64,000 nt of DNA from Pyrinomonadales bacterium (GTDB lineage Bacteria; Acidobacteriota; Blastocatellia; Pyrinomonadales; Pyrinomonadaceae), in NCBI GenBank assembly GCA_038200505.1, contig JBBPXX010000005.1:11201-75200 (forward strand), written 5' to 3'. The notes below the pieces were generated by a model. It was not told the DNA's origin, did not search any database, and saw only the letters and a program-made list of their open reading frames with translations. This document shows positions 3,896 to 56,651 of this stretch, piece after piece (positions within the stretch are counted from its first letter, which is position 1; the number at the start of each line of letters is the position of its first letter). Made by a program: the position numbers and the translations under genes.

Positions 3896-4037
3896 CTGTG
3901 TTCCTTAAAGTTAATTTTTCTTTGTATATCTTCCTACCTTAATTCAAATACTATGCCATAAAAAATACAGTCTTTTATTTGAGTATTGGAATTGTAAAGT
4001 GGAGTTTATGTATCGAAATAAAACAGGTTTATGTATT

Positions 4038-4071
4038 AAAAAAAGGATGAACGATTCAGTTCATCCTTTTT
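4038..4071 (-). terminator. intrinsic terminator after the 778-aa gene
   Basis: Stem AAGGATGAAC/GTTCATCCTT with a 6-nt loop, flanked by A and T runs. Confidence 0.7.
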
Positions 4072-47818: not shown

Positions 47819-48217
47819 ATGGCAGTTCAAAATTTACAAGTTACAACAGAAACTCTTTTAGATGTGGTTGTGCAAATGCCGGAAAAGGATTTTGAAAAGT
47901 TTTTTGAAAAAGCCAAAAAACTTCGTTCCGATTCAAGCCGAATTAGTTGGACAAAAGACGAACTCAAAATTATAAAGAAAATTGAAGAGTGTAAATACAC
48001 GCCTGAAAAAGAAAAGCATTTTGCAAATCTTGTCAGGAAGCGACAAAGCGAAACAATTTCGGAAAGTGAATTTAAAGAACTTTCCAAATTAACGAATGAG
48101 GGCGAAGAAAGAACTCTTAAACGACTTAAATTGCTCGTAAAATTGGCGACATTAAAAAACAAATCGCTTGATGAAATTATGAAAATTCTCAAAATTCGTT
48201 CACCCGAAACTTTATGA
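47819..48217 (+). CDS. hypothetical helical protein, 132 aa, partner of the HNH gene
   Basis: Lys/Glu-rich. There is a 4-nt ATGA overlap with the HNH gene, and a perfect palindrome lies in its promoter region. Confidence 0.5.
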   Translation: MAVQNLQVTTETLLDVVVQMPEKDFEKFFEKAKKLRSDSSRISWTKDELKIIKKIEECKYTPEKEKHFANLVRKRQSETISESEFKELSKLTNEGEERTLKRLKLLVKLATLKNKSLDEIMKILKIRSPETL

Positions 48218-48630
48218 GAATTTCAAAAAAGAAGCGAGCCGAGATTGAGGAGAGAGCAGACGATTTATGTGAATATTGCCGACTTCCGCAGACACTTTCA
48301 ACTCACCCTTTCTCAATCGAATATATTTTGCCAATTTCAAAAGGCGGAAGCGATGACCTTGGAAATCTCGCGCTCGCCTGTTCAGCCTGCAACAATTCAA
48401 AATATAATAAAACCGAAGCCGTTGATCCGAGCAGTTTGGAAATTGCCGCGCTTTATAATCCGCGAAAAGATGTGTGGAGCGAACATTTTGCATGGAACTC
48501 GGATTTTTCGCTAATTGTCGGATTAACTGCAAAAGGTCGCGCAACTGTTGAAGCATTAAAATTAAATCGTGAAAGAATCGTAAATATTCGTAAATTTTTA
48601 CATTCCGTTGGCAAACATCCGTCGAAGTAA
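48214..48630 (+). CDS. HNH endonuclease
   Basis: CEYC...H...IEYILPISKGG...NLALACSACNNSK matches the HNH/Cys4 motif. Confidence 0.82.
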   Translation: MRISKKKRAEIEERADDLCEYCRLPQTLSTHPFSIEYILPISKGGSDDLGNLALACSACNNSKYNKTEAVDPSSLEIAALYNPRKDVWSEHFAWNSDFSLIVGLTAKGRATVEALKLNRERIVNIRKFLHSVGKHPSK

Positions 48631-48642
48631 AATAAATTTTCA

Positions 48643-50712
48643 ATGAAAAAATACGTCATCAAACGAGATGAAAATTCGCTTCCCGAACGTCTGACGCGCT
48701 ATCGTAACGAATTAAACGAACAGCAATTTCGCGTCGTTACGGCGAAACCGAATGCCGCGCTGGTCGTCGCGGGCGCAGGAACGGGCAAAACGCGCACGAT
48801 AACTTATCGCGTCGCATATCTGATCGAACAGGGCGTTTCGCCGCAGAGAATTTTGCTCGCCACATTTACAAATCGCGCGGCACGGGAAATGTTAAAGCGC
48901 GTTGAAACTTTGACCGGCTCGCAGAATGTTCATCGCATTTGGGGCGGAACTTTTCACCGCATCGCTAATTTGATTTTGCGAAGACACGCCGTTTCCATCG
49001 GTTTCGATTCAAATTATTCAATTCTGGACGCGGAAGATTCAAAGGATTTTATCAATGTCTGCATCGAAGAAGCCGCGATTGACACGCGCGGGAAGCGTTT
49101 TCCGAAACCGGAAGTCGTTCAAAGCATTATATCTTACGCCAACAACACCGATTCGCCGATTGAAGATGTCATCATTAAAAAATATCCGTATTTTGAAATG
49201 CTTTCGCAGCAAATCAAGCGCGTGGATTTTGTTTATATGGAACGGAAGCGCGAAAGAAATGTGATGGATTATGACGATTTACTTTTGAATTGGAAACGTC
49301 TTTTGCTCGAAAAACCTGAAATCGCCGCCGTTTATGCCGAACAGTTTCAGTATATTTTAGTTGACGAATATCAGGACACGAACAAACTGCAAGCCGAATT
49401 AATTGATTTATTGGCGGTCAAACATAAAAACGTGATGGTCGTCGGCGACGACGCGCAATCAATTTTCGCGTGGCGCGGCGCGGAATTTACGAATATTTAC
49501 GAATTTCCGAAGCGTTATCCGAATGCGGAAACTTATAAATTAGAAAAGAATTATCGTTCAACGCCCGAAATTCTCGGCTTGGCGAATGTTTCGATTGCCA
49601 ATAACCGCAAACAGTTTCCGAAAACTCTGGAAGCGATAAAAAAATCAAAAGGGTTTTTGCCAGCTTTGATTCCGTGTTCGGATGTCGAACAGCAATCGGC
49701 GTTTATCGCATCGAGAATTTTGGAATTGCGCGACGAAGGCACATCTTTAGAAGAAATCGGCGTTTTGTATCGTTCGCATTATCATTCTATTGAATTACAG
49801 CTTGAATTAACGAGAAGAAATATTCCGTATCGTGTGCAAAGCGGCGTGCGCTTTTTTGAACAAGCGCACATCAAAGACGTGATTTCCTACTTGCGAATCA
49901 TCGTCAACCCGCGCGACGAACTCGCTTGGAAACGCATTTTGAAAATGATTCCGAGCGTCGGCAACGCGACGGCGAACAAGATTTACGAAAGTCTGGCGTA
50001 TGCGGAAAATCCTTTTGCTTTGGTCAAACGCGAAGATTTCAAATATCAACCGCGCAGTAAAGGAAACTGGCAAAATTTTGTCAAATTATTGGAAAAAATC
50101 ACGACCGACGAAAATCGCAACAAACCCGCCAAACAAATCGAACTGATTTTAACCAACGGTTACGAGCAGCATTTGACCGAAAATTACGAAAACGCCGAAG
50201 CGCGTCTGGAAGATTTGCGCGGTTTGGCGTTGTATGCTTCGCGTTACGATTCAACTGAAGATTTCTTATCGGAACTTGCCTTGCTTTCAACCGAACGCTT
50301 TAAAGAACCGCAAGCAATCGTCGGCGAAGATGTCGTAATGGGCGGCGAGGAAGACGAACTTTTAACTTTAACCAGCGTTCATCAAGCGAAAGGTCTGGAA
50401 TGGAAAGCCGTCTTTGTAATTTGGGCGGCGGAAGGCAAATTCCCGTCTCCGAGAAGTTTGAAAGAAATTGACAGCGAAGAAGAAGAACGCCGCCTTTGGT
50501 ATGTCGCTTTAACACGGGCGAAAGATGAATTGTATTTAACTTATCCGCTGATGATTGTTGATTATAACCGCCAAACCGTTTTGCAGAAGCCGTCGCGTTT
50601 TATCCAAGAATGTCCGCCCGCGATGTTTGAAATTTGGAGTTTGGAAGAAGACGCGCCGCAATTTGACGCGCCGCTTGAGTTTGAAGACAAAAAGCAGGAA
50701 TTTTTGAATTGA
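48643..50712 (+). CDS. UvrD/PcrA/Rep-family ATP-dependent DNA helicase
   Basis: Walker A AGAGTGKT, motif II VDEYQDTN, and the C-terminal VHQAKGLEW...ALTRAK. Confidence 0.88.
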   Translation: MKKYVIKRDENSLPERLTRYRNELNEQQFRVVTAKPNAALVVAGAGTGKTRTITYRVAYLIEQGVSPQRILLATFTNRAAREMLKRVETLTGSQNVHRIWGGTFHRIANLILRRHAVSIGFDSNYSILDAEDSKDFINVCIEEAAIDTRGKRFPKPEVVQSIISYANNTDSPIEDVIIKKYPYFEMLSQQIKRVDFVYMERKRERNVMDYDDLLLNWKRLLLEKPEIAAVYAEQFQYILVDEYQDTNKLQAELIDLLAVKHKNVMVVGDDAQSIFAWRGAEFTNIYEFPKRYPNAETYKLEKNYRSTPEILGLANVSIANNRKQFPKTLEAIKKSKGFLPALIPCSDVEQQSAFIASRILELRDEGTSLEEIGVLYRSHYHSIELQLELTRRNIPYRVQSGVRFFEQAHIKDVISYLRIIVNPRDELAWKRILKMIPSVGNATANKIYESLAYAENPFALVKREDFKYQPRSKGNWQNFVKLLEKITTDENRNKPAKQIELILTNGYEQHLTENYENAEARLEDLRGLALYASRYDSTEDFLSELALLSTERFKEPQAIVGEDVVMGGEEDELLTLTSVHQAKGLEWKAVFVIWAAEGKFPSPRSLKEIDSEEEERRLWYVALTRAKDELYLTYPLMIVDYNRQTVLQKPSRFIQECPPAMFEIWSLEEDAPQFDAPLEFEDKKQEFLN

Positions 50713-50734: not shown

Positions 50735-51859
50735 TCAATCCTGTTTGTCAAATGCTGGAACAAGTGTCAACTTTGGCTTGTCAGGAAATTCAGAACTTTT
50801 GTCTAAGAACTCATTATTGTCTGATCGTTCGGGAACTGCCGACATAATCAACCCCGCAATCAAAGAATTTAATTCAGTTGGTGTGATACATAATTTACGG
50901 GCAATTGAATTTCGAGAAATTCCTTCGGAGCGTAAAACTCCAAATACTTTCCCAAGTACTTGAGAGTCTTCTCTTGGAATACCGTTTTTTTCTTTCTTTC
51001 TTTGCCCCGTTTGACTAAGCTCAATACAAAACGAACGATACTGCCATTCCGTTAATACGTCTAAGTGGCGAAGTCTTACAACTAAAGCAATCGCGGACAC
51101 TTTATATCTCTTTTTGAGTTTTTGAATTGTGTTAAGAGTAAGATTACGTGGAACATTTGCAAGCACATCTTTCGCGGGCATTAAGAACGCTGAAGCAAAT
51201 CTGTCAGCTTCAAGTTCCGCCTGACGGCTTCTTGGAATACCTTTTCTGTGCATACATAGATGTCCTGTTTCATGACCGACATCCATTCTGCCTCGTTCAC
51301 CTGATTTCATTGGATTTAGAAAAATGAATGGTGTTTTGTTATGCCAAACAGAAAAAGCGTCAACAGATGCGCTATCAATTGGTAATGAAAAAACTCTGAT
51401 TCCATTTGCTTCGGCAAGATGCATTATATTTCGTATTGGACGTTGACCTATTCCCCACTCAACTCGTAATATTTCTGCTGATGTTTCGGGGTCTAAATTA
51501 TTTAATTTGGGCAAATTGAGTTTTGGTAAATCGAATTGTCCACTAATCCAATTCTCTAATGATACAGCCAATGTTCCTGACGCTAATGCTGTATCTCGCA
51601 ATGAAGCTGTCATAGAACTGAGTGACCTAAAACTAGCAGAATCGCACTCAATCTCATCAACCCCAGACTCAAAAAAGAATGAAGTTGGAAATTGAAGTGT
51701 TTCACTCAAACTTTGAATTGTTTCATCTGATGGGGTAATTTGTCCTGATTCATAATATCCCAAACTACGATTACTTACTTTAGATTTCTCAGATAACAAT
51801 GCTTTAGACAATCCTCGTCTTTTGCGAGCTAACACTAGACGCGAAGGGTTAAATTCCAT
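50735..51859 (-). CDS. XRE-type HTH fused to an ImmA/IrrE (COG2856) zinc metallopeptidase domain
   Basis: N-terminal HTH (LARKRRGLSKALLSEKSKVSNRSLGYYESG) and the HExxH motif GHETGHLCMH. Confidence 0.85.
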   Translation of the reverse strand: MEFNPSRLVLARKRRGLSKALLSEKSKVSNRSLGYYESGQITPSDETIQSLSETLQFPTSFFFESGVDEIECDSASFRSLSSMTASLRDTALASGTLAVSLENWISGQFDLPKLNLPKLNNLDPETSAEILRVEWGIGQRPIRNIMHLAEANGIRVFSLPIDSASVDAFSVWHNKTPFIFLNPMKSGERGRMDVGHETGHLCMHRKGIPRSRQAELEADRFASAFLMPAKDVLANVPRNLTLNTIQKLKKRYKVSAIALVVRLRHLDVLTEWQYRSFCIELSQTGQRKKEKNGIPREDSQVLGKVFGVLRSEGISRNSIARKLCITPTELNSLIAGLIMSAVPERSDNNEFLDKSSEFPDKPKLTLVPAFDKQD

Positions 51860-51874
51860 AATATTTTCTAATAT

Positions 51875-52501
51875 TTATTGCACTTTACGCATTATGGGAA
51901 TATCAATATCACTATCATCAGACAAATCATCATTAATTTCTATATTTGAGTCAAATGTAAGTGATTCAAGTAAGATACGTTTATCCCAAGACACGATTGT
52001 TCCGTCTTTAGTTATAACAGCGGGAAGTGATAATTCCGAATAAATAACTTCCCCTATTCGCGTTTTCAGCAATATCCAAGTTACTTTATTAATTTCTTTA
52101 GGTTGAAACTCAACATCAGTAAATAAGGAGCGTTGATTCTGAACAACCGCATCTTGGGTAACCGAACCTTTAGGATATTTTGTATGTGGAATTTTGTCAG
52201 CATGTCCTGTTCCCTCATCGCCTGTGGCAACAGCTATTGCAATCTTTTTATCAGGACTCACGACTGTTGAATAGTTTTTGCTGTCATCCCTTGCCCATCC
52301 TTTCACTACTAACTCCTCCCTCAAAACCCGAACTGTTTTACCCCAAGCAATAAAGCCAGGAAGACAAGGCGGATCATTAGCGGTGCAAGAATCCCGTGCT
52401 ATTTCCCCTTCCAATATCGCTGTCTTTAAAATTTCCGCATTTACGCCTATTTCGTCTAAAGCATTTGTAACATCATAGATTTTTGTTTTTACTTCACCCA
52501 T
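51875..52501 (-). CDS. uncharacterised 208-aa protein co-oriented 15 nt upstream of the XRE-ImmA gene
   Basis: Clean ATG with GAGGA 8 nt upstream. No motif recognised. Acidic C-terminal tail. Confidence 0.55.
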   Translation of the reverse strand: MGEVKTKIYDVTNALDEIGVNAEILKTAILEGEIARDSCTANDPPCLPGFIAWGKTVRVLREELVVKGWARDDSKNYSTVVSPDKKIAIAVATGDEGTGHADKIPHTKYPKGSVTQDAVVQNQRSLFTDVEFQPKEINKVTWILLKTRIGEVIYSELSLPAVITKDGTIVSWDKRILLESLTFDSNIEINDDLSDDSDIDIPIMRKVQ

Positions 52502-52634
52502 TAATTAATCCTCAACTAAAAATATATTCGTATATTACATACGTTGCCGATTATTCTCCCTCATTTGAGGAGGAAAATCAAGCAACGCCACTATTTTTTT
52601 GGTAATCCTCTTTGAATTTAAAGTTCACTCTTTT

Positions 52635-53483
52635 TTAAACGCATTCAGCTATTCCGTCTTTAACCGATTTAACAATCTTCAAAACACGGTCAAAATTATC
52701 ATCAGCCCTGCTCTCCAAACGAACAATTTCAAAGACAAATTTTTCCATCTTTTTTTCATTGCTCAAAAGTCCTAAAAGTTCTGATCTTGTAGTTTTGGAA
52801 GAAATTTTTGCAATATCAATTCCTAAAAGTTTTGCTCCCGCAATTTCGTAATCGTAATCTGCATCTTCCAGCCATTCGGGATAATGCTCATAGATTCGGT
52901 CTTCGTTGTCGCCGATGTCCAGATAATTTTTTGCGACTAGCCAAAAATCCGATGTGTCTTTGTTTGAATGACGGTCATTCCAAGCGATGATTTTGAGAAT
53001 TGCCAGACCGACGGGCGAAACGATTTTTATTGTTAGGTTTTTCGATAATTTAACATTCAGAGCAGATTTGTAGGCTTCGGCAAAACCCGTTGTGGTTATC
53101 TCTTTTGCTGTGGTTTGCCAAGTTATTTTCCCCTGCGGCGATTCGATTCCGCCGAATGGAACAATATCAATTTCCGTTTGCGTTTTAACTTCAAACATTC
53201 GGTGTTCGACCTTTGAATCTTGTTGAAAATTCCCTGTTTGAATCAGCGTTTGTTTTAGCTGGTCATATTCCGTCCAATTTTCTATTGCTATCGCAAAATC
53301 AATATCACGAGTTGCAACGCTTTTCGGCAGATTGTAACCAAATTGCAAAACTAAATCGCGTGCGGTTGCTCCGACCAAGAAAACAGGAATGTTTAACTCG
53401 TCGGCAACGGTTTTAACGAGTTCGATAATTTTGACTGTTTGTTGTGGAATTTTATTCGATAAGTCCAGCGAGATATTTATCAT
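52635..53483 (-). CDS. nucleotidyltransferase, AbiEii/AbiGii-toxin-like
   Basis: Pol-beta NTase motif FLVGATARDL...ATRDIDFAI with a later DIVPFG. It overlaps the upstream wHTH gene. Confidence 0.62.
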   Translation of the reverse strand: MINISLDLSNKIPQQTVKIIELVKTVADELNIPVFLVGATARDLVLQFGYNLPKSVATRDIDFAIAIENWTEYDQLKQTLIQTGNFQQDSKVEHRMFEVKTQTEIDIVPFGGIESPQGKITWQTTAKEITTTGFAEAYKSALNVKLSKNLTIKIVSPVGLAILKIIAWNDRHSNKDTSDFWLVAKNYLDIGDNEDRIYEHYPEWLEDADYDYEIAGAKLLGIDIAKISSKTTRSELLGLLSNEKKMEKFVFEIVRLESRADDNFDRVLKIVKSVKDGIAECV

Positions 53484-54465
53484 AAATAATCTGTGCGGCT
53501 TCAAGATTGCGTGATTCCGCCGTTGCCAATAAATCGGCATAAACAAGCAGCGGCGGTGCAATTATATCGCTTTGATCGAAATTCCAAAATTTTTGGCGGA
53601 TTTTTATATTTCCTTTATCAGCTTTTCGCAATTTATGCTCTCTGGCTAAACGCTGCACAGGTAAAGAAAGGCTTTTTGCGTAAATTAGTGTTTTTGTCGG
53701 ATTCAGGTAACCTGTCATCTTATCAGCGGCAATCTCGCCACTCCAACAGGCTTTTATTTCAGTCAGATCAGTTTCCTTCCACCAATCAATATTCTCCGAT
53801 TCATACTGCCTTTCTAAAAGTTTATTGCGTAAAGTTTCGGCAAAACCCTGCACCCAACGCTTTAATAATTCATCTTTACGGAAAAGAATTCTGCTGTCTT
53901 TTTTTCTAACTAAATAATCATCTATTTTCAAGGCATTCATTATATCGCTGACCGAACCTAAAGAAATGCCGGACATTTCGGCTAATTCCCGATATGTTTT
54001 GTTTTCAGAATCAGGAAGTGATAATAAAACGAAAAGCAGTTGCAAACCGCTCGGCTGGAAAATCAGGTTGGTGTTCGGCTTTTTAATTTCGGTGTTTCTG
54101 CCGTGTGAATTTACAAAGATATAAAACTCGGAATCGTTAAAATAGGCGTTTCCATTGGCATCAAAAAATGCTATGTCGAGTTCCCGAAGTTTATCCGCAA
54201 ATTTCGGCGGGACATATTCGGTTATAAATACGATTTTGTTCGACGTTTGCCTTTGCTTCAAAGCCAACTGCCCGATGACGGACGAATGAGGTTTTTTGTA
54301 AATTTCTACATCATATTTTTTAGTTATTTCTTTATTATCGAATAGAAATTTAATTTGAATTTGAGAAGGCGCGTTGTTAAATTCCTTTATATAACTCATT
54401 TGCACATTAAAAGAATCTTTTAATGCTTCTGATGCTTTGGTAATAATTTCCTCTTCTAAACTCAT
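53452..54465 (-). CDS. AbiEi-like antitoxin/transcriptional regulator with an extra N-terminal domain
   Basis: Central wHTH (YRELAEMSGISLGSVSDIMNAL) and a C-terminal WVQGF...WSGEIAA...IYA region. Start taken at MSLEEE (54465). Confidence 0.5.
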   Translation of the reverse strand: MSLEEEIITKASEALKDSFNVQMSYIKEFNNAPSQIQIKFLFDNKEITKKYDVEIYKKPHSSVIGQLALKQRQTSNKIVFITEYVPPKFADKLRELDIAFFDANGNAYFNDSEFYIFVNSHGRNTEIKKPNTNLIFQPSGLQLLFVLLSLPDSENKTYRELAEMSGISLGSVSDIMNALKIDDYLVRKKDSRILFRKDELLKRWVQGFAETLRNKLLERQYESENIDWWKETDLTEIKACWSGEIAADKMTGYLNPTKTLIYAKSLSLPVQRLAREHKLRKADKGNIKIRQKFWNFDQSDIIAPPLLVYADLLATAESRNLEAAQIIYDKYLAGLIE

Positions 54466-54484
54466 ATTCGCTGATACTCTTTTC

Positions 54485-54538
54485 GTGTTCAGTTTTCTAT
54501 ACTGTTCATTATAACTGAACACAAGAAAAAACTGAACA
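54485..54538. promoter_or_regulatory. four copies of TGTTCA(G)/CTGAACA arranged as inverted and direct repeats, candidate AbiEi-type operator
   Basis: GTGTTCAGTT at 54485..54494, ACTGTTCA at 54501..54508, AACTGAACAC at 54513..54522, AACTGAACA at 54530..54538. All lie within 75 nt upstream of the ATG at 54465. Confidence 0.42.
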
Positions 54539-54569
54539 TAAAAATACAAATCGTGCAAAAAATGAACTC

Positions 54570-56651
54570 TTAGGACAAAACTTCACTAAATTCTTTTTCC
54601 AAAACCGTTTTCGCCGCGTGAAATCCGCACATTCCGTGAACGCCGCCGCCGGGCGGAGTTGATGCTGAGCAGATGTAAAGTCCTTTGGACGGAATAATAT
54701 ACGGATTGATTTTGGCAACCGGGCGCGTAAAGATTTGCGAGGCGATGCCCGCGCCGCCGTTGATGTCGCCGCCGACGTTGTTGGCGTTATAATTTTCCAA
54801 ATCGGCGGTGTTTTTGACGGATTTGGCGAGAATGATGTCGCGGAAACCGGGCGCGAAGCGTTCGATTTGGTTTTCGATTTGCGTCGTCATATCGGCGGTT
54901 GATCCGTTTGGAACGTGGCAATAAGCCCACGCCGTGTGTTTTCCTTCGGGTGCGCGTGTCGGGTCGAAAAGCGTGTGTTGGGCGAGTAGAACAAACGGTT
55001 TTTCGGAAATTTTCCCTTCGTTGTGCTGGCGTTCCGAACGGGCGATTTCTTCAAAAGTGCCGCCGAGATGAACCGTTCCGGCTTGCAGACATTCTTGCGC
55101 TTTCCACGGAATCGGCTCGCTCAATGCAAAATCCATTTTGAAAACACCTGAACCGTATTTGAAGGTTTCCAAACGCTTGCGGTAAGCGTCAGGCAAGTGA
55201 TGTCCGGCGATTCTGATGATTTGGCGCGGCGTGAGGTCGAATAAAACTGTTTTGGAACTCGGCAAATCATCAATGTTTTCGATGCGATTTCCCGTTTCGA
55301 GCTTTCCGCCGAGCGAAATAAAATAATCACGAAGCGCGAAAGCGATATATTGTGCGCCGCCTTTCGGGAAACCCCAACCGACTGAATGAGCGGTTAAAAG
55401 CAAAACTAACCCGAACGCCGCGCTCGGCGTGTCTTCGAGCGGCAGCATCGAATGCGCCGCGTTGCCGGCGAACATCGCGCGGGCGCGAGTTTCGCTGAAA
55501 TAATTGTCTGCGATATTTTTTGCCGAATTAAAACCCTTTAAACCGAAACCGAGCATCAAAAACGGATTTGACGGAATCCGCAAAGGCGCGAGAATGTCGG
55601 GCGCGATCGCGTCAAAATTTTTCGCTAAAATTTCAACGAGTTTTTTATAACCGTCATTATCCGCGCCGAGATTTCGGGCGGTTTCCGCGACGGATTTCTC
55701 CAAAATAACAGCCGTTCCGTCGTCGAGCGGATGCGCGAGCGAAGCGTCGGGCTGAATGAATTCCAAACCGAATTTGTCAAGCGGCAGCGTTTGAAAAAAC
55801 GGTGAAGCGATAGTCAAAGGATGAATCGCCGAACAGACATCGTGCGTAAAACCGGGCAAAGTCAATTCTGCCGAACGCATTCCGCCGCCGATTTCGTTTG
55901 CGGCTTCGACAATCAAAACCGAAAGTCCTTCCTGCGCCAGACAAATTGCCGCCGCCAAACCGTTTGGACCAGAACCGACAATAACCGCGTCGTATTGATA
56001 ATTTTCGACTTTTGTTTTTTTCTCTAAAGTTGTTTTATCTGTGTGTTGTCCGGCAGCATCTTCGAGAAAATGATGGCAAAATTTTTCCCATTCGCTTTTC
56101 TGCATTCCCAAATAAGTAGCGACATTGACGGCGACATTGCGAATCGCGTCCAGTGTGTTTTCCGTTTCAGAAGTATTTTGTTTTTCATTTAAGCCGATGA
56201 CATAAAACGCAACCTTTTTATCTTTTTTAAGCAAACAAAAATTATTATTTGATTCGTCAGTAAAAAAATGTGAAATCACCGAATTATCAACATTTCCCGC
56301 CGTCGGATCAAAAGTCGGTTTAACAGTAACAATAAATTCATCCGGCGCGTCGTAAATATCAATTATGCGAATCCAATCGTATTTGTGCGACGCTGTAAGC
56401 GAAATTCTGATGAACGCACCAACGTAAAGTCTTTTCTCGTCAATTTCGCGTCCCGTTTCGTCAAACAGCGCGTAAGACGACATCAACGAGTGCGCGTTCC
56501 ATTCATTGATGTTCTGGAGTTTTGTTTTAAGCGTTGAAAAAACTTGCGCCGCTTTTGCTTCATCTGCAAAGATTTTGTCGGCTGAACTGATCGAACTTTC
56601 GTTCTCGTTTTGTTTCGCTTGGTTTAGCAAATCTTTGGTTTTATTAATCAT
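54570..56651 (-). CDS. phytoene-desaturase-family FAD-dependent oxidoreductase with an unknown ~200-aa N-terminal domain
   Basis: Rossmann motif VIVGSGPNGLAAA at about residue 215. The C-terminal part is CrtI-like. Confidence 0.78.
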   Translation of the reverse strand: MINKTKDLLNQAKQNENESSISSADKIFADEAKAAQVFSTLKTKLQNINEWNAHSLMSSYALFDETGREIDEKRLYVGAFIRISLTASHKYDWIRIIDIYDAPDEFIVTVKPTFDPTAGNVDNSVISHFFTDESNNNFCLLKKDKKVAFYVIGLNEKQNTSETENTLDAIRNVAVNVATYLGMQKSEWEKFCHHFLEDAAGQHTDKTTLEKKTKVENYQYDAVIVGSGPNGLAAAICLAQEGLSVLIVEAANEIGGGMRSAELTLPGFTHDVCSAIHPLTIASPFFQTLPLDKFGLEFIQPDASLAHPLDDGTAVILEKSVAETARNLGADNDGYKKLVEILAKNFDAIAPDILAPLRIPSNPFLMLGFGLKGFNSAKNIADNYFSETRARAMFAGNAAHSMLPLEDTPSAAFGLVLLLTAHSVGWGFPKGGAQYIAFALRDYFISLGGKLETGNRIENIDDLPSSKTVLFDLTPRQIIRIAGHHLPDAYRKRLETFKYGSGVFKMDFALSEPIPWKAQECLQAGTVHLGGTFEEIARSERQHNEGKISEKPFVLLAQHTLFDPTRAPEGKHTAWAYCHVPNGSTADMTTQIENQIERFAPGFRDIILAKSVKNTADLENYNANNVGGDINGGAGIASQIFTRPVAKINPYIIPSKGLYICSASTPPGGGVHGMCGFHAAKTVLEKEFSEVLS

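What the first reader, a model, noticed from the sequence alone, without database searches (positions are those of the whole stretch)
50735..52501. Uncharacterised 208-aa gene coupled to an XRE-ImmA/IrrE fusion: candidate toxin/effector plus protease-repressor module
Seen: on the minus strand, a 208-aa ORF (51875..52501, GAGGA RBS, acidic tail DDLSDDSDIDIP) is followed 15 nt later by a 374-aa protein. That protein has an N-terminal XRE HTH and a HExxH (GHETGHLCMH) ImmA/IrrE peptidase domain.
A 133-bp AT-rich spacer with a small palindrome AATATA-TTCG-TATATT (52521..52536) precedes the pair.
Established: COG2856-Xre fusions act as protease-coupled repressors/antitoxins and partner with many different, often unannotated, toxin or defence effectors.
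I recognise no motif in the 208-aa partner. The segment KKIAIAVATGDEGTG...KYPKG could hide a nuclease-like core, but that is a guess.
The pair sits in what looks like a defence island, with AbiE-like genes on one side and HNH/helicase genes on the other. This makes it the most likely place in the window for a system without a name.
Basis: partly seen in the sequence, partly recalled or inferred. Interest (0 to 1): 0.7.

Follow-up and report, generated by a model that had tools for sequence, protein, structure and literature searches.

The report
RosmerTA toxin–antitoxin phage-defence pair
The two genes are a clear member of RosmerTA, an already named and tested bacterial anti-phage toxin–antitoxin system, so the pair is real and well described but not a new kind of system.

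Summary
A 208-aa ORF (51875..52501, minus strand) lies 15 nt upstream of a 374-aa XRE-HTH + M78/ImmA peptidase ORF (50735..51859).

The interpretation, a toxin plus a protease-type antitoxin or repressor, is right in kind. The pair is not "a system without a name". It is RosmerTA (RmrT/RmrA; Millman et al. 2022).

- **PADLOC models:** both proteins match at full length (RmrT 9.8e-55, RmrA 2.2e-140). These are the same two best models hit by the experimentally verified E. coli OLC-716 pair.
- **Similarity to the verified pair:** RmrA is 44% identical. RmrT is a full-length remote homologue (24% identity, hhalign probability 99%).
- **Gene linkage:** in 40 of 40 related genomic loci from several phyla, rmrA follows rmrT directly.
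- **Family size:** the RmrT family has at least 2,682 clusters at 50% identity. It has no Pfam family, and its confident AlphaFold model matches no solved structure. Its biochemical activity remains unknown.

By-product: the promoter lies inside a conserved 46-bp dyad (52542..52587). The core is CCTCA-NN-TGAGG between −35 and −10, and the outer arms covary between loci. The same dyad is present in the E. coli system, and it is probably the RmrA operator.

Verdict: new member of a known kind, low interest.

The parts
51875..52501 (-). rmrT: 208-aa RosmerTA toxin. It is acidic (pI 4.8), soluble and globular, with no predicted membrane segment.
   Evidence: PADLOC RmrT PDLC03935 E 9.8e-55, covering 9-206 of a 207-position model. 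BLASTP to the verified E. coli RmrT gives 24% identity, E 1e-11, full length. hhalign gives probability 99.0, E 5.9e-18. The AF2 model has pLDDT 90.5 and pTM 0.84.
51878..51934 (-). RmrT C-terminal tail (aa 190-208). It is acidic and ends in the conserved motif [DE]-I-x-[VI]-x-[VI]-[KR]-R. It is disordered in the model and is a candidate short linear motif for partner binding (inference).
   Evidence: The motif is present at the C-terminus of nearly all 40 homologues, and in E. coli RmrT as DIDLDILKTG. pLDDT is 61-73 in the monomer model and below 50 in the fused model.
50735..51859 (-). rmrA: 374-aa RosmerTA antitoxin and repressor (pI 9.2). It is an XRE HTH plus an M78/ImmA Zn-peptidase plus a conserved C-terminal helical region.
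   Evidence: PADLOC RmrA PDLC03949 E 2.2e-140, covering 3-366 of 363 positions. It is 44% identical over 337 aa to the verified E. coli RmrA, E 2e-98. Pfam HTH_3 and Peptidase_M78 both match.
51677..51829 (-). RmrA HTH_3 DNA-binding domain (aa 11-61).
   Evidence: Pfam PF01381, E 7.8e-13. The only solved relative found by sequence is the P2 C repressor HTH.
51071..51415 (-). RmrA Peptidase_M78 (ImmA/IrrE) domain (aa 149-263), with HETGH at aa 196-200 (51260..51274).
   Evidence: Pfam PF06114, E 1.5e-21. Motif position.
52542..52587 (-). Promoter embedded in a 46-bp dyad-symmetric element, the probable RmrA operator. Its parts are: -35 TTGATT (52581..52576); a 17-nt spacer holding the core palindrome CCTCAAATGAGG (52570..52559); -10 GAGAAT (52558..52553); and outer arms GTTGC (52586..52582) and GCAAC (52547..52543).
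   Evidence: The core is unique in the 64-kb window, with 0.02 matches expected. Twenty-eight of 41 upstream regions have at most 2 mismatches to the core, against about 3% of random pieces. It is identical in the verified E. coli construct. Dyad covariation is 0.292, against 0.142±0.012 when shuffled (0 of 500 shuffles as high) and 0.06-0.10 when slid.
52502..52520 (-). 5' leader end with the GAGGA ribosome-binding site, 8 nt before the rmrT ATG.
   Evidence: Read directly from the sequence.
51860..51874 (-). 15-nt rmrT-rmrA spacer with no clear SD. The two genes are in the same frame, separated by TAA plus 5 codons. In 21 of 40 related loci (20 of them intact) the stop and start overlap as ATGA, which indicates translational coupling.

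Best explanation
The pair is a RosmerTA (RmrT/RmrA) toxin-antitoxin anti-phage module of the same subtype as the experimentally verified E. coli OLC-716 system.

Proposed working model:

1. One promoter upstream of rmrT drives both genes. It is a σ70-type promoter: TTGATT, 17 nt, GAGAAT.
2. RmrA translation is coupled to RmrT translation.
3. RmrA binds as a dimer, through its N-terminal XRE HTH, to the 46-bp dyad that overlaps the -35/-10 spacer. This autorepresses the operon (inferred from dyad conservation and covariation).
4. RmrA also keeps the RmrT toxin inactive. This is shown genetically only for relatives: rmrA or vmi470 cannot be deleted alone, and co-expression neutralises toxicity.
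5. During phage infection an unknown cue removes or inactivates RmrA. NetFlax proposes that the M78 protease domain cuts off an HTH, as ImmA does to ImmR.
6. RmrT is then freed and arrests the cell, aborting the infection.

RmrT is a soluble α/β protein with no match to any solved fold and no Pfam family. Its conserved polar residues are T40, D43, T98, K108, K111, N122, E156, S158 and R175. These suggest an enzyme or a specific binder rather than a membrane pore. Its target is unknown.
For: **Identity**
- PADLOC RmrT hits at 9.8e-55 and RmrA at 2.2e-140, both full length.
- The verified E. coli proteins hit the same best models, PDLC03935 and PDLC03949.
- RmrA is 44% identical to the verified RmrA.
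- RmrT is homologous over its full length.

**Linkage**
- In 40 of 40 loci rmrA is immediately downstream on the same strand. These loci come from Acidobacteriota, alpha-, beta- and gamma-Proteobacteria, 'delta' lineages, Nitrospirota, Verrucomicrobiota and Nitrospinota. Twenty-one loci (20 of them intact) have ATGA overlaps.

**Mobile and defence context**
- Flanking genes vary between loci. They include R-M methylases, XhoI, OLD-TOPRIM, transposases and integrases.
- Homologues occur in 36 plasmid and 2 phage records.
- The E. coli copy lies in a P4-like satellite.

**Function in relatives**
- RosmerTA defends against phage, and ΔrmrA could not be transformed.
- Vmi480/Vmi470 has the same architecture, is lethal alone and is neutralised by co-expression.
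- The RmrTA of phage Kita defends against Bas54 and Bas59.
- Spr1630/Spr1629 behaves the same way.

**Operator**
- Supported.

**RmrT fold**
-.
Against: - Nothing was tested on this locus itself. Toxicity, neutralisation and defence are all extrapolated from relatives whose toxin is only 24% identical.
- The trigger, the way RmrA neutralises RmrT (binding or cleavage) and the RmrT target are unknown in the literature I could search.
- The pseudo-complex AlphaFold run gave no confident interface. pTM was 0.44 and the RmrT tail had pLDDT below 50.
- Other Rosmer toxins act differently: Kita RmrT depolarises the membrane and RipA targets DnaN. The family name therefore does not fix the effector mechanism.
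- RmrA binding to the dyad is inferred, not shown.
- The window's -10 (GAGAAT) is weaker than the TATAAA of most relatives.
Confidence: 0.9

Rival explanations
1. The pair is a plain addiction or stabilisation toxin-antitoxin module with no role in phage defence in this host. It would persist as a selfish cassette on mobile DNA.
For: Homologues occur on 36 plasmid records. Three of 40 chromosomal copies are decaying: L004, L029 and L034 carry frameshifts. Vmi480/470 was described purely as a TA pair on a genomic island. RipAB in S. pneumoniae has a physiological role in competence rather than in defence.
Against: The same subtype from E. coli gave phage defence under its native promoter. Neighbours in other loci are often R-M or other defence genes. 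In the window the pair sits directly beside AbiE. The two roles are not mutually exclusive.
Confidence: 0.25
2. The pair is an ImmR/ImmA-type switch of a mobile element. The fused repressor-protease would control excision or lytic genes, and the 208-aa gene would be cargo or an anti-repressor rather than a toxin.
For: The HTH + M78 architecture is that of a fused ImmR-ImmA, and PHROG 2439 'transcriptional regulator' matches at 2.1e-92. The E. coli copy is inside a P4-like satellite.
Against: No integrase, recombinase or phage structural genes flank the pair in the window; the flanks are AbiE, a helicase and metabolic genes. The unit conserved across 40 loci is just the two genes plus their own promoter, and the flanks vary. 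Deleting rmrA or vmi470 alone is lethal unless the upstream gene is also removed.
Confidence: 0.05
3. The roles are reversed: the M78 peptidase is the toxic effector and the 208-aa protein is its inhibitor or sensor. This follows older COG2856-as-toxin predictions, recalled from my own knowledge of Makarova et al. 2009.
For: The peptidase has an intact HExxH motif. RmrA is better conserved (51-69% identity) than RmrT (about 40-55%) among the same sets of contigs.
Against: In three related systems the upstream small protein is the lethal one and the HTH-peptidase is the antidote.
Confidence: 0.03

Closest known systems
RosmerTA (RmrT/RmrA) from E. coli OLC-716, construct SG158 of Millman et al. 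2022
   Same: - Same gene order and sizes (239 and 370 aa, against 208 and 374 aa here).
- Same best PADLOC models for both proteins.
- RmrA is 44% identical.
- RmrT is homologous end to end, including the GD/C-x-TG loop, the ELS-P strand, the R-[IL]-[IL] strand and the C-terminal DI-x-[VIL]-x-[VI] tail.
- Same promoter layout, with an identical CCTCAAATGAGG core between -35 and -10.
   Different: - The toxin is only 24% identical and lacks a ~30-aa insert found in the E. coli protein.
- The outer operator arms differ: GTTGC/GCAAC here, TTTTC/GAAAA in E. coli.
- The host is probably an acidobacterium rather than E. coli. The closest homologues are from Pyrinomonadaceae MAGs.
- The context is chromosomal, next to AbiE, rather than a P4-like satellite.
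- This locus is untested.
Vmi480/Vmi470 TA pair of Vibrio mimicus MGIVmi1 (Luo et al. 2015, PMC4671572)
   Same: The toxin comes first (198 aa). It is followed, after a 5-bp gap, by a 362-aa HTH + Zn-peptidase antitoxin. There is a single upstream promoter. The toxin is lethal alone and is neutralised by co-expression. Millman et al. cite it as the same configuration.
   Different: It was never tested for phage defence.
Other Rosmer-type pairs with unrelated toxins: Gordonia phage Kita RmrT(D5)/RmrA and S. pneumoniae RipA/RipB (Spr1630/Spr1629)
   Same: All have an HTH + ImmA-type peptidase antitoxin paired with a small toxin. The Kita pair defends against phage. RipB is essential only when RipA is present.
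   Different: - The Kita toxin has a membrane region and depolarises the membrane. The window RmrT is predicted to be soluble.
- RipA targets the sliding clamp and needs ClpX.
- The window RmrA scores only 117 bits against the NCBIfam spr1629 model, whose cut-off is 335. It is therefore not in that equivalog group.
ImmR/ImmA of ICEBs1, and CapH/CapP of CBASS
   Same: Each combines an XRE HTH repressor with an M78 metallopeptidase that cleaves it. The window RmrA matches the capP model at 1.8e-21 and the capH model at 0.01.
   Different: In those systems the repressor and the protease are separate proteins that regulate other genes. Here they are fused and paired with a toxin.

Membership tests
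RosmerTA | An RmrA component with an N-terminal HTH fused to a Zn-peptidase (M78/ImmA) domain carrying HExxH. | tested here: met
   Pfam HTH_3 7.8e-13 and Peptidase_M78 1.5e-21. HETGH at aa 196-200. PADLOC RmrA PDLC03949 at 2.2e-140, full length. 44% identity to the verified RmrA.
RosmerTA | An RmrT component that matches one of the family's toxin models. | tested here: met
   PADLOC RmrT PDLC03935 at 9.8e-55, covering 9-206 of 207 positions. This is also the best model for the verified E. coli RmrT, at 1.1e-52. hhalign probability 99.0 against the verified toxin.
RosmerTA | The two genes are adjacent, on the same strand and form one operon. | tested here: met
   The gap is 15 nt, on the same strand, with a single upstream promoter-like element. 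The arrangement is conserved in 40 of 40 loci.
RosmerTA | The toxin is toxic alone and is neutralised by RmrA. | not testable with these tools
   Known only for relatives.
RosmerTA | The pair confers resistance to phage. | not testable with these tools
   Shown for the E. coli OLC-716 and phage Kita systems. Not shown for this locus.
NCBIfam NF052239 spr1629-family repressor/antitoxin (RipB) | A whole-protein score at or above the curated cut-off of 335 bits. | tested here: not met
   117.4 bits. It is related, but not a member of that equivalog.
   No Pfam hit was found for any of 36 family members. The best Foldseek matches, to Hjc and splicing endonuclease, have E>=0.06 and TM<=0.43. The conserved residues do not form a D/ExK motif. 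The secondary-structure order α-β-β-β-α-β is compatible with this fold but is not evidence for it.

The most novel reading that the evidence does not exclude
RmrT of this subtype may be a toxin with a fold and biochemical activity not yet represented among solved structures or Pfam families.

The cassette may also carry its own portable regulatory unit. This would be a 46-bp dyad operator whose outer arms have co-diversified with the cognate RmrA HTH, insulating co-resident Rosmer copies from one another.
Probability: 0.35. Interest if true: 0.45.

Novelty: new member of a known kind. Interest (0 to 1): 0.2.

Why it matters
For the genome scan, this removes a candidate "nameless system". Standard PADLOC models, and probably DefenseFinder, would label the locus Rosmer.

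Three points have some value beyond that.

1. The verified RosmerTA subtype extends into Acidobacteriota and at least six other lineages, with strict gene linkage.
2. The toxin family is large, at 2,682 or more clusters at 50% identity. It still has no Pfam entry, no structural relative and no known target, so it is a reasonable target for structural and biochemical work.
3. The conserved dyad promoter/operator, with covarying arms, gives a concrete and testable handle on how RmrA regulates the operon.

Tried and rejected
- **Family scans of the 208-aa protein.** Pfam, NCBIfam and PHROGs gave no hits. Scanning 36 family members against Pfam gave only noise.
- **Solved-structure search by profile.** Only chance-level hits, E>1.
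- **Foldseek of the confident AF2 model.** Searches against PDB and BFVD gave nothing at E<=1e-3. The histidine-kinase hits have TM<=0.16 and are meaningless. The Hjc, splicing-endonuclease and PD-(D/E)xK-like hits are too weak to use.
- **First locus scan.** The scan with the 36-sequence alignment failed because no stretch was conserved enough. It was repeated with 12 closer sequences.
- **RmrT-RmrA complex modelling.**
  - A naive mixed alignment misplaced the toxin homologues.
  - A block alignment with only 6 RmrA homologues was accepted. It gave pTM 0.44 and a disordered RmrT tail, so it is inconclusive.
  - The tool returns no coordinates or PAE, so no interface could be inspected.
Rejected as the operator. 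It is not above chance and not conserved.
- **The sigma-70 consensus scan.** It picked a different, weaker promoter (TCGGCA/TATATT). I prefer the TTGATT-17-GAGAAT promoter because it is the one conserved across loci.
- **Literature search for a Rosmer mechanism or trigger.** Only surveys turned up, plus the NetFlax, RipAB and Vmi480 papers.
Full report
**Observation**

The ORF list and the minus-strand sequence confirm the finding as described.
- A 208-aa ORF lies at 51875..52501, with an ATG start and GAGGA 8 nt upstream.
- Its C-terminus is acidic: NDDLSDDSDIDIPIMRKVQ.
- A 374-aa ORF at 50735..51859 begins 15 nt after the first ORF's stop.
- The 374-aa protein has Pfam HTH_3 (aa 11-61) and Peptidase_M78 (aa 149-263), with HETGH at aa 196-200.
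- The 133-bp spacer upstream is 31% G+C, and it contains AATATA-TTCG-TATATT at 52521..52536.
- AbiEi_2/AbiEii lie immediately upstream. An HNH gene and a UvrD-like helicase lie downstream, convergent with rmrA.

**Identity**

The 208-aa protein has no hit in Pfam, NCBIfam or PHROGs. In PADLOC-DB it matches the RmrT model PDLC03935 over its whole length (E 9.8e-55). The 374-aa protein matches RmrA PDLC03949 (E 2.2e-140). RmrT and RmrA are the two components of RosmerTA.

[quoted passage not shown] They reported phage defence under the native promoter and an untransformable ΔrmrA mutant (bioRxiv 10.1101/2022.05.11.491447).

The supplement of that paper gives the sequences of the verified system from E. 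coli OLC-716. I compared them directly with the window.
- RmrA is 44% identical over 337 aa (E 2e-98).
- RmrT is 24% identical end to end (BLASTP E 1e-11).
- A profile of 36 window-type RmrT sequences aligns to the E. coli toxin with hhalign probability 99.0 (E 5.9e-18, 208 columns).
- The verified proteins have the same best PADLOC models as the window proteins.

The window pair therefore belongs to RosmerTA, and to the very subtype that was tested.

**Linkage and distribution**

- A word-indexed search found 99 homologues of the toxin, none of them named.
- An exhaustive profile search found 2,682 clusters at 50% identity with E<=1e-3, and 1,055 with E<=1e-30. The best 150 are all stand-alone proteins of about 190-260 aa.
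- In a scan of one genome per species, 40 loci encode a relative. In all 40 an RmrA homologue follows immediately on the same strand. In 21 of them (20 intact) the stop and start overlap as ATGA.
- The hosts span Acidobacteriota, alpha-, beta- and gamma-Proteobacteria, 'delta' lineages, Nitrospirota, Verrucomicrobiota and Nitrospinota.
- Three copies are frameshifted: L004, L029 and L034.
- The two nearest neighbours on each side differ from locus to locus. They include Eco57I-type methylases, XhoI, UvrD-like helicases, OLD-TOPRIM/AAA_15 proteins, transposases and integrases.
- Homologues also occur on 36 plasmid records and 2 phage records, always annotated as hypothetical.
- The E. coli copy sits in a P4-like satellite.
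- RmrA relatives are more numerous: 3,699 or more at E<=1e-30 among the candidates scored. They are also better conserved than the toxin.

In the window the defence context is small. AbiE, Rosmer, and possibly the HNH and helicase genes occupy about 6.7 kb between ordinary metabolic genes. G+C is mildly lower there (38-40%, against 42% for the window). There is no tRNA or integrase nearby.

**Regulatory element**

Looking for conserved palindromes upstream of rmrT, I found that many loci share CCTCA-NN-TGAGG about 35-70 nt before the start codon.
- In the window this core is at 52559..52570. It is unique in 64 kb, with 0.02 matches expected.
- Twenty-eight of 41 upstream regions match it with at most 2 mismatches, against about 3% of random pieces of the same loci.
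- The verified E. coli construct has the identical CCTCAAATGAGG.

Anchoring on the core shows a conserved layout: acTTCTTGTTTTTCc-CCTCAnnTGAGG-TAtAAAAAccGGAAgt. This is a -35 (TTGttt), a 17-nt spacer holding the core, and a -10 (TATAAA; GAGAAT in the window).

The whole 46 bp is dyad-symmetric, and the outer arms change together between lineages.
- ACTTC/GAAGT in most Proteobacteria.
- GTTGC/GCAAC in the window.
- GTGC/GCAC in L002 and L004.
- GGTTC/GAACC in L014.
- TGTTC/GAACA in L035-L039.
- TTTTC/GAAAA in E. coli.

Counted formally, 79% of cells pair. The covariation score is 0.292, against 0.142±0.012 in shuffles (0 of 500 as high) and 0.06-0.10 when the partner columns are slid. Columns 8-11 and 46-49 show compensatory changes with almost no unpaired cells.

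The left arm overlaps the -35 and so lies upstream of the transcript. The symmetry is therefore best read as a binding site for a dimeric protein, and RmrA's HTH is the obvious candidate. This is an inference.

It is no better than shuffled sequence and is not conserved.

**The toxin**

AlphaFold2 with the 36-sequence alignment gives a confident model (pLDDT 90.5, pTM 0.84).
- Three N-terminal helices come first.
- A β-β-β unit follows.
- Next is a long conserved loop: GDExTG...TKYPKG.
- After the loop come a helix, a variable acidic linker and three long β-strands.
- The tail is disordered.

Foldseek finds nothing at E<=1e-3 in PDB or BFVD. The only suggestive hits are too weak to support a nuclease assignment: Hjc resolvase, splicing endonuclease and a PD-(D/E)xK-like viral protein. 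The conserved residues do not form a D...(D/E)xK motif.

Residues invariant or nearly so across the family, and largely shared with E. coli RmrT, are T40, D43, W53, W69, G94, T98, G99, K108, K111, N122, E156, S158, P160 and R175. This numbering is for the full 208-aa protein; the positions printed are one lower.

There is no predicted membrane segment. That contrasts with the Kita phage Rosmer toxin, which depolarises membranes. The S. pneumoniae Rosmer-type toxin RipA acts on the sliding clamp instead. Rosmer toxins are thus mechanistically diverse, and the activity of this one is open.

The extreme C-terminus carries a conserved [DE]-I-x-[VI]-x-[VI]-[KR]-R motif in a disordered segment. I suspect a docking motif for RmrA, but I could not test this.

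A pseudo-complex prediction used the in-frame read-through of the two genes and a block alignment. It gave pTM 0.44 and pLDDT below 50 for the tail. NetFlax reported a similar failure for the Kita pair.

**Mechanism**

*Shown here*
- Homology to the verified system.
- Strict two-gene linkage.
- A conserved promoter with dyad symmetry.
- A soluble, confidently folded toxin with no known fold relative.

*Shown for relatives only*
- The upstream protein is the toxin and the HTH-peptidase is the antidote.
- The pair defends against phage.

*Inferred*
- RmrA autorepresses through the dyad.
- Infection inactivates RmrA, possibly through its own protease domain as in ImmA/ImmR.
- The released RmrT stops growth.

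**Novelty and verdict**

The locus is a new, divergent and untested member of a known, named system. It is not a new kind of system. Interest is low (0.2). The residual interest lies in the uncharacterised toxin fold and in the conserved, co-varying operator.

Noticed in passing
window 52542..52587 (minus strand); also L001-L039 upstream of the match, and L042 about 4020-4070: A 46-bp dyad-symmetric promoter/operator is conserved from Acidobacteriota to E. coli. Its core is CCTCA-NN-TGAGG between -35 and -10, and its outer arms covary between lineages. I found no description of it in the papers I could search.
   Followed up: yes
window 47819..50712 (plus strand): Three co-oriented genes lie just beyond rmrA. 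They are a 132-aa ORF with no family hit, an HNH endonuclease overlapping it by 4 nt (PtuB-like in PADLOC, 2.4e-13), and a 689-aa UvrD-family helicase 12 nt further on. The helicase scores far below the NCBIfam cut-offs for PcrA, UvrD and Rep, but strongly against the GajB and DRT-helicase models (about 1e-91). No GajA is present. This could be a separate helicase-nuclease defence module or a housekeeping helicase.
   Followed up: no
window 52635..54558 (minus strand): An AbiE-type pair lies directly upstream of rmrT: AbiEi_2 (5.6e-35) and AbiEii (7e-08). As called, the ORFs overlap by 110 nt, so the AbiEii TTG start is probably too far upstream.
   Followed up: partly
window 51860..51877: rmrT and rmrA are in the same reading frame, separated only by TAA and five codons. 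Stop-codon read-through would give a 588-aa fusion. In 21 of 40 related loci (20 of them intact) the genes instead overlap as ATGA, out of frame, so this is probably coincidence.
   Followed up: partly
L004, L029, L034: Three of the 40 related loci carry frameshifted or truncated rmrT and/or rmrA. L004 keeps an intact toxin ORF with a broken antitoxin, which is unexpected for a toxin-antitoxin pair unless that toxin is inactive.
   Followed up: no
L042 (E. coli 2011C-4251, NZ_CP027388.1 3958708-3966975): The experimentally verified RosmerTA subtype is found in 10 of 5,426 complete E. coli genomes. It sits in a P4-like satellite, next to a primase-family gene and an Icd-like gene. PGAP annotates the pair only as 'hypothetical protein' and 'helix-turn-helix domain-containing protein'.
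   Followed up: partly
RmrT family: The word-indexed protein search found 99 relatives of the toxin. The exhaustive profile search found 2,682 clusters at 50% identity. This is a large family with no Pfam model in the copy used.
   Followed up: yes
window 54570..56651 (minus strand): This 693-aa protein has FAD/NAD-binding oxidoreductase domains that begin only at about aa 216. The N-terminal ~200 aa have no Pfam match at E<=1e-5.
   Followed up: no
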